64,000 bases of DNA from Pocillopora damicornis (taxonomy: Eukaryota). This document shows positions 51,001-64,000 of the stretch, in pieces; position 1 is the first letter of the stretch, and each line of letters opens with the position of its first letter. Made by a program: the position numbers. The DNA is taken from contig NW_020843520.1 in assembly GCF_003704095.1 (NCBI RefSeq), positions 124,001 through 188,000 on the forward strand, given 5' to 3'.

Positions 51001-54000
51001 CCACAGTTCCGTTTGCACCTAGTGAATACATTTATTTCAAAGTCACGTGAAACATGTGGTCGTCTGTTATAGTGATATTTTTAAGGAATTAACTGTTCAG
51101 CTAAAAAGGTACACTCTACAGATGGTGAACTCTTCAGAGCGAATTTTACATTAGATACAATCAATCTTTACCACAGTATCTCTACCTCTAGTTTTTTTTT
51201 TTTTAATTCAAATTCAATAACTAGCCCAAGGAAAAGCCTTAGGAAAAATTATATAGTAAATTATGATCGTATGGAATTTAAAATAGAAATTGAACTAAGC
51301 TTTGGTTTATTGACAGGACGTATCACAAAAAAACTTGCTTATAAACTCGAAATATGATAGTGCTTTGAAGGTATCTTCTTACCTGATTTTGATAACTGGT
51401 GGATCTCCATCGACAATCTTTACCACCTGAGTAAAGCTTGAGATTCGAAAGTGATTATTCACTGTCTTGGAGACAAAAAGGGCCACTGCATAGGAAGAAT
51501 GCAACCCAAGTGTGCCTGTGTGAATTTCAATGGACGATCCGCCCTTCATTAAAGTTCCGTTTCTTGATCTATGGCAGAAAGTGGATGCATTGTAATCAGA
51601 GACATTAAGAAGGTAAGTTTCGCTTGTCATGGACATTAAATCTTCCTGTATTTCCCAGGAAGCATTTTGACAAAGCCAGTAGTACTGTAAATTGGGTTCA
51701 GCGTCATCAGGGTCACGGGAATCCGAACCGTCCAGTAAGTAGGGCTTACCAAAGGCTTTTTGAATGAGACTCCCTCCTTCGATTATTGCTATCAAAACAT
51801 TGCCTTGTATTTCAATGAAGCCTTCTTCAATGCTGTACACATCGTATTGTTCTCTCATACTGACATTACACCTAATCATATATACACCATATGTCAAGGT
51901 CTTTTTCTGTATAGTTAGCTCCTCGAGTTTCTTGTTGTCTGGGTTAAGAACGGTATGGGCTCCAGATTTATCCTTTGGCAAAGATGACACCTCAGAAACA
52001 GTCCAAATGATATCTTTTTGATCAGTTGCCTTGCAATCGATTTTCGTAATAAAAACACGAAAACGAACCACCTGTAATGGAGTGAACACTGTTCGAGAAT
52101 TTATATCTTTTTTAAACTCTGGTACTGTTATGGTGGGAAAATTGCAAGGTATTTTTACCACAAGGGCTTTGTCCTGTAGGAAGGAACGAGAAACACGATT
52201 CCACGCTGTCACGCTTACATCATAACTTCCCAACGAAGAGTAGTTGTAGTTGATAGAAAAATAATTTCCAGCGAAGCCTAAGAATCGTACCGATACGTTT
52301 TCATGGCTGCAGTCTTCGTGACCAAACCCAAAAAATGTTCCATCACCAAGATTAACAACAAAGCAGGAATTCGTTCCTCTTTCTTCTGTTGATATGTTAA
52401 AAACTACCATTTCATCGATTTGCCTCGGGCAGTTGTTGGTGAAAGTTAGGCTTTTAATTGCTTGCTGTACCGTAACAGTTGCTTTTTGGACTATAAAGCC
52501 AAAGTTGTTTGAGCAGTTAATGTTTACGTTGAAAACATTTATTGTTTTGTAAACATGGTAGATCAATGAACTGTTTTGAAAAGAAGATGTTTGAATGAAA
52601 CTCCCATCTCCAAAATACCAAAAGCATAGATACGGAAACCCTTCACTGACATTTAGGATCATCAATGCCGGCTCTGTAACGTTGGCTGAAGAAACCTCTA
52701 GAGTTGCATTACCAAGTGAAAAGACTTTTCGGACATTTATAACAGTTCGTACCTGATACGCACTTATATTGTTGTAAACAATTACGCTAATATTTTTCAG
52801 TCCACTTTGCGGATAATTGTACACCAATTCTGTTGATCTTTGTGTAAGATTTATTCCATCGCCCAAAATAAACAAAAATTCCGGGTTAGAACCATCAGAT
52901 ACATTCAATTTTATTTCAATACTGTCATTCTGGTATATGTTATCAAAGGGCCCAAGATTCTTGATAAGCAAACACGAAACATTGACTGGAATTTCAACTA
53001 TAATTTGTTCAGATATTGTGATGCTGTTCAACTCATTCATGGCCATTATGATGACGTAGAATACTCCCAGGCCAGTGTAGATATGAGAATTATTTCTCTG
53101 TAGGACTTTTTGAACAGAAGAAAATGAATAAGTTTCTGTCGAGTTGTCTCCATAATCGATCGAAAAACGAACCATTGAACCCGTATCGATTTTCCAATAA
53201 ATTAAAAAAGTATCCCTAAATGAAATTGCGTTAACTTTTTTGTTCACCACAAAACCTGTAATAGCATCCTGCACCAGGATAAGGCGTCTCGTTATGGTGT
53301 GATTTTTAGCTTGTAAAACTAGTTCCACAAAGCCAGTTTTGTTGTAAATATGTTCAATTTCGCAGAGCGATGTGTTGGTTACGTTGCAATCCCCAAAATC
53401 CAAACTCACAACCTCCCGACCGCAGTTTTTGATCCTGATAACAACCGGAACTTCTTTTACTACAACGGAAGGAACTGTTACGTCGAGTGCTGAAATTTCA
53501 CAGTAGGTAAATTATTGTCAGTAGTCAATTTTTTTCAATAGAGTAGTAGATAAATTTGGGTCATGATCACTAACAACTCGAATAAATTGGAAAAAAAATT
53601 ATTCTATAACATTCACATTCCAAGCTGAAGATTTAAACACTTTAAATTCTTACTTTAAAGTATGGAAATTCAGTTATCAGCGTTGAATCTCCTTGCTTTA
53701 CAATTGAATTAAAATTACTGTTAATTATTTTTGTGTTCAACTGTCTTCGTGTCATTTGAGATGATACGCTGCACTTGGGAGAAATAATATGACTCAAATT
53801 CATTAAACTAAAATCTGTTTATAAAAAATGAAATAAAATGTATAATTTTCGAAAAGGAAATAAACATTACTTTTCTTTTCAGGGACGGCATGCAATTTGA
53901 TTAATTCTTAGCGAGTTGTTTAAATTCTTGTTGCAAACTCAATTTTCAAACTTCCAAGTGGTTTGTAGTGGACACAAAGCCCCATTCGATCTCTAAAGTT

Positions 54001-63000: not shown

Positions 63001-64000
63001 ATTCTTATTTTACCATTACATCCATAGAACTCCACACTGATATGTGGTGTATGATCCCAAGTTTGAGGGTAGAGCCTGATATAGCGTGATGTAATTTTCT
63101 TAGGCAGCGGCCGGCGTAAAGTTTGATAACGAGTTATGCAACCTAGAAAAACCTGCCACGGTAAAGGAAAGAAAAAACATTTAGAGATTATGTGATATAA
63201 AAAAAAATTTTGTTCAGTGGGATCCATTAACTTGAATACTCAACGGAATATTAGTTTCGGAGGATATATAGTTGGCTGCCTCGCAAATTCAAAAATTGTT
63301 AGGAGCACATAGCGAGTTTGTATACAGGCAACAATAAACGTAGCTGAGGACCGTTCTGGCAATGAGAACTTTTAACTTCCACAAACTGATCGCGTCTCAG
63401 AAACCTTTGTGCTTAAGCTCCCAACTATATTTTTCTCACGAGTGTTGGTTTGCATTCATTTCATTGTTGCATACGTTCTAATCTTAGTCGACATATCATA
63501 ACTCCAGAGTAAATGAGTCAAATAACAAAGAAAGGTCGTTATCGCATGTTCGACCAAGGCAACTTTTGAAGAATGATATTAAACTCAAACTCATAACTCG
63601 GCTAACACAGCCATTTGGTCTGTTCGTCTTAAACAAAAACTATTGAGTTGAGATTCAGAGCTACTTCATACGCAAATACCGTAAGTTCGACTAAGTATCA
63701 GTATTGGTTGATAATCTGCAGAAACCTATCGCTGCAAACTGTAAAACTATTATAGTGAATGGTTTTAACCCGGGGGTAACATGTAATTTTGTAGTTTGAT
63801 TGTCCGGGTAGTGGTGACTGACGTTTCAACAACCTGGGCGGAAGTCATCATCAGAGTCAAGTGAATAGTTGTTGTCAGTCGAGAACATTCAAAAGACAAC
63901 AAATAATCACTTGACTCTGATGATGACTTCCGCTCAGGTTGTCGTAACGTCAGTCAACACTACCGACAACAGTCCTTCTCAGGACTACACTCACCCGGAC

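What the first reader, a model, noticed from the sequence alone, without database searches (positions are those of the whole stretch)
51383..63152. Unusual polycystin-1 ectodomain: >=7 discoidin domains + TSP1 ahead of PKD/REJ
Seen: exon phases link the discoidin cassettes to TSP1 (phase 1-1) and then to the PKD/REJ exon without a break. Known: vertebrate PKD1 uses LRR/WSC/C-type lectin domains and sea-urchin REJ proteins use EGF/CTL/SUEL. I do not know a long discoidin array as a standard PKD1 architecture, though cnidarian PKD1-likes are diverse. Inference: exon shuffling of phase-1 modules gave the channel complex a new ligand-binding head.
Basis: partly seen in the sequence, partly recalled or inferred. 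Interest (0 to 1): 0.72.

Follow-up and report, generated by a model that had tools for sequence, protein, structure and literature searches.

The report
Polycystin-1-like gene with discoidin head
An animal gene for a polycystin-1-type membrane receptor and channel subunit appears to carry a long row of discoidin (sticky, ligand-binding) domains at its outer end, an unusual but not revolutionary variant of a family known for swapping its outer domains.

Summary
On the minus strand, 63152-54863 encodes six whole F5/8-type-C (discoidin) domains plus the C-terminal half of a seventh, and the array runs off the window. A TSP1 exon follows (54366-54181), then a 2107-nt exon with five PKD repeats and the start of REJ (53489-51383). 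The rest of a complete polycystin-1-like body follows: REJ, GPS with HLT, PLAT, TOP and PKD_channel, with a stop at 39888. All 16 exons are open and chain in phase.

The discoidin-to-TSP1 junction uses a GC donor (G|GCAAGT). Phase 1-1 compatibility is weak evidence. A second array of 14 discoidin domains lies downstream of the channel's stop, so discoidin arrays also exist here apart from this gene's PKD body.

One transcription unit is the best reading (about 0.65). The gap is intron-sized (496 nt, against about 4 kb between genes). No strong signal-peptide exon precedes the PKD body. An NCBI Nematostella model combines discoidin, PKD and REJ. No transcript data were available.

It is a new variant of a known kind. 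None of five literature searches found this architecture described, and none of 30 long polycystin relatives carried a discoidin domain.

The parts
63014..63152 (-). Discoidin domain 1, C-terminal half-exon (phase 0 in, 1 out). Its N-half lies beyond the window end.
   Evidence: Own C-half profile E 3.6e-20. Splice model. Pfam found nothing at E<=0.01.
61717..62810 (-). Discoidin domain 2: exons 62810-62509 and 61858-61717 (444 nt in all). Both terminal Cys are present.
   Evidence: Pfam F5_F8_type_C E 1.9e-6 on the N-half. Profiles. Splice model.
59649..61097 (-). Discoidin domain 3 in three exons: 61097-60940, 60319-60170 and 59787-59649 (447 nt). Both Cys are present.
   Evidence: Pfam E 1.2e-3, 1e-5 and 2.6e-5. 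Splice model.
58429..59293 (-). Discoidin domain 4: exons 59293-58962 and 58585-58429 (489 nt). Both terminal Cys are missing.
   Evidence: Pfam E 5.3e-5 on the N-half. Profiles. Splice model.
57553..58105 (-). Discoidin domain 5: exons 58105-57825 and 57688-57553 (417 nt). Both terminal Cys are missing.
   Evidence: Pfam E 5.3e-10 and 4.4e-7. Splice model.
56468..57323 (-). Discoidin domain 6: exons 57323-56974 and 56606-56468 (489 nt). Both terminal Cys are missing.
   Evidence: Pfam E 2.5e-17 and 7.6e-6. The best solved relatives are factor V/VIII C domains, neuropilin b1/b2 and lactadherin.
54863..56002 (-). Discoidin domain 7: exons 56002-55689 and 55001-54863 (453 nt). Both Cys are present. 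It ends in the GC donor G|GCAAGT. An alternative in-phase GT donor has its last exon base at 54869.
   Evidence: Pfam E 3.1e-12 and 6.5e-4. The donor sits at the same position as the GT donors of the other repeats.
54181..54366 (-). TSP1 exon, 186 nt, phase 1-1. It has [13 protein letters not shown] and six Cys, and a strong pyrimidine tract before the acceptor.
   Evidence: Pfam TSP_1 E 7e-12 and TSP1_spondin E 5e-12. Sequence, peptide.
51383..53489 (-). Large exon with five PKD repeats (GDG...Y...N signatures read by eye) and the first part of REJ. Phase 1 in, 2 out.
   Evidence: Pfam PKD E 5e-19 (2 stretches pass) and REJ E 1.6e-25, profile positions 5-209. 717 relatives at E<=1e-3.
50349..51080 (-). 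Second REJ exon. Coordinates are ORF bounds. The acceptor is near 51063, phase 2.
   Evidence: Pfam REJ E 8e-33, profile positions 197-416. Junction sequence.
46469..49351 (-). Five open frames between REJ and GPS (49109-49351, 48480-48716, 48132-48476, 47505-47789, 46469-47233). The last one ends in the first half of the GPS motif. Exon ends were not mapped.
   Evidence: ORFs. GPS is sub-threshold, E 6e-3, profile positions 3-24. The other four have no Pfam hit apart from one sub-threshold WSN match at E 0.0099 on 49109-49351.
44463..44735 (-). Second half of GPS with CLCTHLTSFGG (the HL/T cleavage motif), followed by the first transmembrane helix.
   Evidence: GPS profile positions 30-43, E 4e-3. 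Sequence and one TM-like segment.
42527..44008 (-). PLAT domain followed by transmembrane helices.
   Evidence: Pfam PLAT E 9.6e-21. Three TM-like segments over threshold.
39888..41771 (-). Polycystin (TOP) domain and PKD_channel six-helix region in two ORFs (41520-41771 and 39888-41450), ending in the stop codon.
   Evidence: Pfam Polycystin_dom E 2.5e-5 and 1.1e-28, PKD_channel E 6e-42. Solved relatives: PKD2L1 E 4e-54, PKD1L3 E 1.6e-39, polycystin-1 E 8e-19.

Best explanation
This is one long gene on the minus strand for a polycystin-1-family (PKD1-like) receptor and channel subunit. Its extracellular N-terminal fragment is built from at least seven discoidin domains, one TSP1 repeat, five PKD repeats and the REJ module. 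GPS, PLAT, about eleven membrane helices, a TOP domain and a TRPP-type pore region follow.

Shown here: the domains, their order, open frames and in-phase splice sites.

Inferred: the discoidin exons and the PKD body are spliced into one mRNA. The protein is cut at the HL/T site of GPS, as in other family members. The discoidin row acts as a multivalent adhesive head for a glycan, lipid or matrix ligand, and its occupancy or pull is passed through the PKD/REJ/GPS stalk. The membrane part pairs with PKD2-type subunits. The head was probably gained by shuffling or fusion of phase-1 modules from the neighbouring discoidin-array gene family.
For: Splice chain. The 16 exons from 63152 to 51383 chain in phase with no stop, and every discoidin module is a multiple of 3 nt.

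Spacing. The gap from the last discoidin exon to the TSP1 exon is 496 nt. That lies inside the range of the 15 introns modelled (136-691 nt). The two same-strand spacers between genes are about 4.0 and 3.95 kb.

TSP1 exon. It has a pyrimidine-rich AG acceptor and a donor, so it reads as an internal exon.

No start for the body. No Met followed by a hydrophobic stretch (8 of 10) lies in 55690-53489. At 7 of 10 there are only two, one inside the discoidin exon and one in a 27-codon frame.

Donor. The GC donor is the only 1 of 16 donors with AAGT at +3 to +6. That is the pattern expected of working GC-AG introns (recalled). It sits at the position of the GT donors in the other repeats. A second in-phase GT donor lies 6 nt upstream.

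Cysteine pattern. The terminal Cys pair is present in both halves of D2, D3 and D7 and absent from both halves of D4, D5 and D6. This supports the exon pairing and constraint at the protein level.

Precedent. P0095, NCBI 'polycystin-1-like [Nematostella vectensis]', holds F5_F8_type_C, then PKD repeats, then REJ in one model.

Body. The body is complete and family-typical. In the solved complexes, PC1 with PC2 (6a70) and PKD1L3 with PKD2L1 (7d7e), chain counts are 1 to 3.
Against: - No transcript evidence could be consulted.
- The key donor is non-canonical.
- Reading through it gives 23 more codons and a stop at 54788-54786, with ATTAAA at 54593. The discoidin array could therefore end there.
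- The downstream 14-domain array appears to end five codons after its last domain, so a stand-alone discoidin-array gene seems to exist at this locus.
- An in-frame ATG at 54454 precedes the TSP1 acceptor.
- Phase 1-1 compatibility is expected for these module types in any case.
- Only 1 of 186 fetched PKD/REJ relatives has a discoidin domain and 0 of 186 match the TSP1 exon. 0 of 30 long relatives of P0095 list PF00754.
- P0095 is a partial computed model and is only about 24% identical to the window's exon.
- The signal peptide and gene start lie outside the window.
Confidence: 0.65

Rival explanations
1. There are two separate genes. A secreted or anchored multi-discoidin protein ends at the last discoidin exon by reading through the GC site to the stop at 54788-54786. 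An independent PKD1-like gene starts at or just before the TSP1 exon.
For: - The donor is GC rather than GT.
- The read-through frame closes after 23 codons, and ATTAAA lies 193 nt further on.
- The neighbouring array of 14 discoidin domains seems to end the same way, five codons after its last domain.
- An in-frame ATG at 54454 gives [25 protein letters not shown]... ahead of TSP1.
- Chimeric predictions of tandem neighbours are a known source of false new architectures (PMC3927609, search listing and abstract start only).
- 0 of 30 long polycystin relatives carry PF00754.
Against: - Only about 335 nt separate that stop from the ATG. That stretch would have to hold a 3' end and a promoter, while the other spacers are about 4 kb.
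- The ATG-led peptide has a hydrophobic core of only about 6 residues after a 16-residue charged start, and it failed my 7-of-10 screen.
- The TSP1 exon has a strong acceptor.
- The GC donor keeps a perfect AAGT at +3 to +6, unlike the other 15 donors.
- ATTAAA or AATAAA occurs 1.6 times per kb on this strand anyway.
Confidence: 0.22
2. The discoidin exons upstream are decaying remnants or unused pseudo-exons. The working PKD1-like mRNA starts from a leader exon elsewhere, further upstream or outside the window, and splices straight to TSP1.
For: The gene start is not in the window. Signal-peptide-like Met frames occur by chance at 0.8 per kb on this strand, so a hidden leader exon cannot be excluded.
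Against: - All 15 discoidin exons are open with AG acceptors and in-phase donors.
- The domains are 18-57% identical to one another yet keep the family motifs, which points to old copies held by selection.
- Cys pairs are kept or lost together.
Confidence: 0.08
3. An assembly mis-join has placed a discoidin-array locus next to an unrelated PKD1-like gene.
For: The window holds nine N runs, so the assembly is not finished quality.
Against: All N runs lie in 12658-17862. None lies between 39888 and 64000. Composition is even across the junction.
Confidence: 0.03

Closest known systems
Polycystin-1 family (vertebrate PKD1, PKD1L1-3, PKDREJ; sea-urchin SpREJ1-10)
   Same: It shares PKD repeats, the REJ module, GPS with HL/T, PLAT after the first helix, about 11 helices, the TOP domain and a TRPP-like last six helices.
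   Different: Heads described for the family are LRR, WSC, C-type lectin and LDL-A in vertebrate PC1, and C-type lectin, EGF, SUEL and WSC in SpREJ (PMC1934368, passages; Pfam lists). None has a discoidin array or TSP1. The pore region here scores nearer to PKD2L1 and PKD1L3 than to PC1.
Cnidarian polycystin-1 (Nematostella hair-cell PC1; Acropora REJ skeletal-matrix protein)
   Same: The PKD-REJ-GPS-PLAT-TOP-11TM body is the same (PMC8846589 and PMC4890752, passages).
   Different: Those proteins are described with a WSC head and no discoidin or TSP1. Their domain figures are supplements that I could not see.
NCBI model 'polycystin-1-like [Nematostella vectensis]' (P0095, 1302 aa)
   Same: It is the only relative found with F5_F8_type_C directly ahead of PKD repeats and REJ.
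   Different: It is a partial computed model that starts inside the discoidin domain and ends inside REJ. It has no TSP1 between them. It is about 24% identical and ranks 93rd of the 150 listed hits, so it is not an evident orthologue.
Discoidin (FA58C) domains of coagulation factors V/VIII, neuropilin b1/b2, lactadherin, CASPR2 and DDR2
   Same: Sequence family membership is clear: E 1.5e-23 to 8e-7 for one N-half exon.
   Different: Those proteins carry one or two such domains. Here at least seven stand in a row, three of them without the terminal disulfide. Ligand class cannot be read from sequence.

Membership tests
Polycystin-1 (PKD1-like) family | PKD repeats followed by a REJ module in the ectodomain | tested here: met
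   Pfam PKD E 5e-19. REJ E 1.6e-25 and 8e-33 across two exons, covering profile positions 5-416 of 452.
Polycystin-1 (PKD1-like) family | GPS motif with the HL/T cleavage site just before the first helix | tested here: inconclusive
   The motif is split by an intron. Each half scores below the Pfam cut-off (E 6e-3 and 4e-3). CLCTHLTSFGG is present 25 residues ahead of a TM-like segment. Cleavage itself cannot be tested here.
Polycystin-1 (PKD1-like) family | PLAT domain in the first cytoplasmic loop | tested here: met
   Pfam PLAT E 9.6e-21 at the start of the exon after TM1.
Polycystin-1 (PKD1-like) family | Eleven transmembrane helices, the last six TRPP-like, with a TOP/polycystin domain | tested here: met
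   Polycystin_dom E 1.1e-28 and PKD_channel E 6e-42. Nine segments pass a Kyte-Doolittle cut-off of 1.6, and two weaker ones were seen by eye. PKD2L1 E 4e-54. The count of eleven is approximate.
Polycystin-1 (PKD1-like) family | Vertebrate PC1 head (LRR, WSC, C-type lectin, LDL-A) | tested here: not met
   None of these appears in any exon scanned. This head defines the PKD1 orthologue, not the wider family. The 5' end is outside the window.
Polycystin-1 (PKD1-like) family | Assembly with a PKD2-type partner | not testable with these tools
   No partner gene lies in the window. No complex job was run.
Discoidin / F5_F8_type_C domain | Sequence match to the family over the whole domain | tested here: met
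   11 of 14 exon ORFs match at E<=1.2e-3. The halves cover profile positions 2-97 and 62-127. All 14 match the window-derived exon profiles.
Discoidin / F5_F8_type_C domain | Disulfide between the N- and C-terminal cysteines | tested here: inconclusive
   Both Cys are present in D2, D3 and D7 and absent in D4, D5 and D6. That this pair forms the disulfide is recalled, not tested.
TSP1 repeat | WSxW, CSxTCG and six cysteines | tested here: met
   The peptide reads [14 protein letters not shown]...C...C...C...C. Pfam TSP_1 E 7e-12.
Single transcription unit (discoidin array + PKD body) | Spliced mRNA across 54863/54366 and 54181/53489 | not testable with these tools
   Only splice-site and spacing arguments are available. 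No RNA data and no animal genome collection were on hand.

The most novel reading that the evidence does not exclude
The locus has caught a gene fusion with its donor family still next door. A PKD1-like receptor has captured the array of a neighbouring multi-discoidin gene, and the 14-domain array downstream is the free-standing paralogue.

The weak GC donor at the seam would let the locus make two products. One is a short multi-discoidin protein ending in the hydrophobic read-through tail (stop at 54788-54786, ATTAAA at 54593). The other is the same head tethered to a GPS-cleavable channel subunit. Together they would form a soluble or anchored competitor and its signalling receptor for one ligand.
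Probability: 0.12. Interest if true: 0.7.

Novelty: new variant of a known kind. Interest (0 to 1): 0.42.

Why it matters
What polycystin-1 proteins sense is a long-standing open question. Their ectodomains differ between lineages and their ligands are mostly unknown.

A family member whose head is a row of discoidin domains would be useful for two reasons. The binding chemistry of this domain class is well studied in other proteins: phospholipid, collagen, galactose and C-terminal arginine peptides (recalled). It would therefore offer a tractable case for asking how ligand binding or pulling on the N-terminal fragment is coupled to GPS and the channel.

In the sea anemone Nematostella, a polycystin-1 is required for the gentle-touch response of one hair-cell type (PMC11811123, passages). 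Variant heads may therefore tune what such cells detect.

The locus is also a clean textbook-style example of phase-1 module shuffling, if the junction is real.

The gain is modest. The family is already known for modular heads, and the junction is unproven.

Tried and rejected
- Close annotated orthologue. I looked for one to see its head. The word-indexed search of the 710-aa exon against longer proteins gave 2 distant hits among 6911 candidates. The exhaustive search gave 717 hits, but the nearest (53%, 34% and 32% identity) are exon-sized ORFs with no context. The long hits are at most 28% identical.
- Cluster look-up for names: the database was switched off.
- Protein atlas search with P0095: top scores were 0.76-0.78, below the level the tool calls a lead, and the nearest clusters included a bacterial discoidin-PKD one. 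I dropped it.
- Rfam on the whole window gave 0 matches. The tandem-repeat scan also gave no hint of taxon, so the organism stays undetermined.
- Second PKD/REJ or TSP1 copy after the downstream array: none found.
- Register between the two arrays. Domains are 17-57% identical with no array-specific grouping. This gave no evidence on which array is the donor.
- Signal-peptide screen. It is a crude hydrophobicity count that fires 0.8 times per kb by chance, so its negative result is only moderate evidence.
Orthologous loci in related animals therefore stayed unchecked.
- No structure or complex prediction was run, because each discoidin domain of this array is split over exons.
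Full report
**What is there.** The window is AT-rich animal-type DNA (GC 0.35-0.42 outside the gapped stretch), with short introns and nine N runs, all in 12658-17862. I do not take it for human. The best match of its PKD/REJ exon to any long polycystin-type protein is 28% identity or less, and the architecture below is absent from the vertebrate polycystins listed. The organism could not be named (searches gave no hint).

**The discoidin array.** Everything relevant is on the minus strand. Pfam, run on single stop-to-stop frames, finds F5_F8_type_C in 11 of 14 candidate frames between 63239 and 54786. 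I built profiles from the window's own N-half and C-half exons. In that stretch they recover 7 C-halves and 6 N-halves, one of them split, with no hit on the plus strand. That makes six whole domains plus the C-half of a seventh, and the array runs off the window.

**The exon model.** The model has 16 exons from 63152 to 51383:
- every acceptor is AG;
- there are no in-frame stops;
- introns inside a domain are phase 0 and introns between domains are phase 1;
- each domain is a multiple of three bases (417-489 nt).

**Cysteine pattern.** Domains 2, 3 and 7 keep both terminal cysteines. Domains 4, 5 and 6 have lost both. This concerted pattern argues that the halves are correctly paired and constrained as protein. 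The domains are only 17-57% identical to one another, so the array is old.

**The body.** After the array comes a 186-nt TSP1 exon (54366-54181, phase 1-1, [13 protein letters not shown]/six Cys). Then comes a 2107-nt exon (53489-51383) with five PKD repeats by motif and REJ profile positions 5-209. Further downstream lie:
- REJ positions 197-416;
- a GPS motif split by an intron, with CLCTHLTSFGG;
- a first helix;
- PLAT;
- further helices;
- the polycystin (TOP) domain;
- PKD_channel, with the stop at 39888.

The pore exon is closest to PKD2L1 (E 4e-54) and PKD1L3 (E 1.6e-39), and further from polycystin-1 itself (E 8e-19). This is a complete PKD1-like gene body.

**Is the head joined to the body?** I did not build or search a joined, spliced protein. 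Every search used one exon or one open frame, and phases were checked arithmetically exon by exon. What a joined model would add therefore remains open.

The phases fit, but that is weak evidence. Discoidin and TSP1 modules are usually phase 1-1 (recalled).

Stronger points for one gene:
- The gap between the last discoidin exon and TSP1 is 496 nt, within the 136-691 nt range of the 15 modelled introns. The two spacers between genes on this strand are about 4.0 and 3.95 kb.
- TSP1 has a strong acceptor and a donor, so it is an internal exon.
- No Met-plus-hydrophobic frame at 8 of 10 lies in 55690-53489.
- The last discoidin donor is GC. It is the only one of 16 donors with AAGT at +3 to +6, and it sits where the other repeats have GT. 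An in-phase GT donor lies 6 nt upstream.

**Against one gene.**
- Reading through the GC site gives 23 codons, mostly hydrophobic, and a stop at 54788-54786. ATTAAA lies 193 nt on.
- An in-frame ATG at 54454 precedes TSP1.
- Downstream of the channel's stop lies a second array of 14 visible discoidin domains (35712-7591). It has no PKD, REJ or TSP1 after it and a stop five codons past its last domain. A free-standing multi-discoidin gene therefore seems to exist at this very locus.
- No RNA data were available.

I put the single-gene reading at 0.65. Two separate genes get 0.22, unused exons 0.08 and a mis-assembly 0.03.

**Relatives.**
- The exhaustive search with the 710-aa exon gave 717 proteins at E<=1e-3. 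The nearest are exon-sized ORFs (53%, 34% and 32% identity), so related genomes exist but without context.
- Several relatives end at REJ profile position 209, as this exon does. This suggests a conserved intron position.
- That one is P0095, named by NCBI 'polycystin-1-like [Nematostella vectensis]'. It is 1302 aa, with F5_F8_type_C (residues 10-77), then PKD repeats and REJ. It is a partial computed model and a distant relative.
- 0 of 30 long relatives of P0095 list PF00754. They carry LRR, C-type lectin, WSC, EGF or SEA heads.

**Literature.** Five full-text searches found no paper describing discoidin or TSP1 domains on a polycystin-1-type protein. The passages I read were:
- Nematostella PC1 with WSC, PKD, REJ, PLAT and TOP (PMC8846589);
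- an Acropora REJ protein with WSC, PKD, REJ, GPS and PLAT (PMC4890752; PMC3748352);
- the ten sea-urchin REJ proteins with C-type lectin, EGF, SUEL and WSC (PMC1934368).

The domain figures of the first two are supplements that I could not see. Subscription journals are not covered.

**How it probably works (inferred).** The protein would be cut at GPS, leaving a large N-terminal fragment of discoidin row, TSP1, PKD repeats and REJ attached to the 11-helix part. The discoidin row, related to factor V/VIII C domains, neuropilin b domains and lactadherin, would bind a surface or matrix ligand multivalently. Force or occupancy would be passed to the stalk and to a channel formed with PKD2-type subunits, as in the solved 1:3 complexes (chain counts). 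The ligand is unknown.

**Verdict.** This is a new variant of a known, notoriously modular family. Interest is moderate.

Noticed in passing
window 7576-35870, minus strand: A second array of 14 visible discoidin domains starts about 4 kb after the PKD-channel stop. A Met plus hydrophobic stretch at 35870 is one frame off the first discoidin exon, with a T-run between them. The last exon reads ...IYGCEGRNNKL-stop. No TSP1, PKD or REJ follows. It is probably a separate multi-discoidin gene.
   Followed up: partly
window 12658-17862: Nine N runs of 10-328 bases sit inside the second array. One discoidin C-half (about 15591) abuts a run. I did not fill them or look them up.
   Followed up: no
window 2475-3626, minus strand: A 384-codon open frame ends in ankyrin repeats (Ank_2 E 2e-12). 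It is probably an unrelated neighbouring gene.
   Followed up: no
window 9355-9733 and 7863-8087: A 31-nt tandem repeat of 12 copies and a 118-nt repeat of 1.9 copies lie inside the last long intron of the second array. The first translates as a repetitive YFRRSITVQSV-like frame.
   Followed up: no
window 54786-54862, minus strand: The frame read through the GC donor encodes KLQLLLSFLHVPIFAFSTILVMRV-stop, a 19-residue hydrophobic run. This could be chance in a T-rich intron, or the tail of a short isoform.
   Followed up: partly
window 5445-5720 and 42079-42306, minus strand: Two open frames share a similar ...LIILNY(T/S)V... peptide, seen by eye. This may be a dispersed repeat inside introns or spacers.
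   Followed up: no
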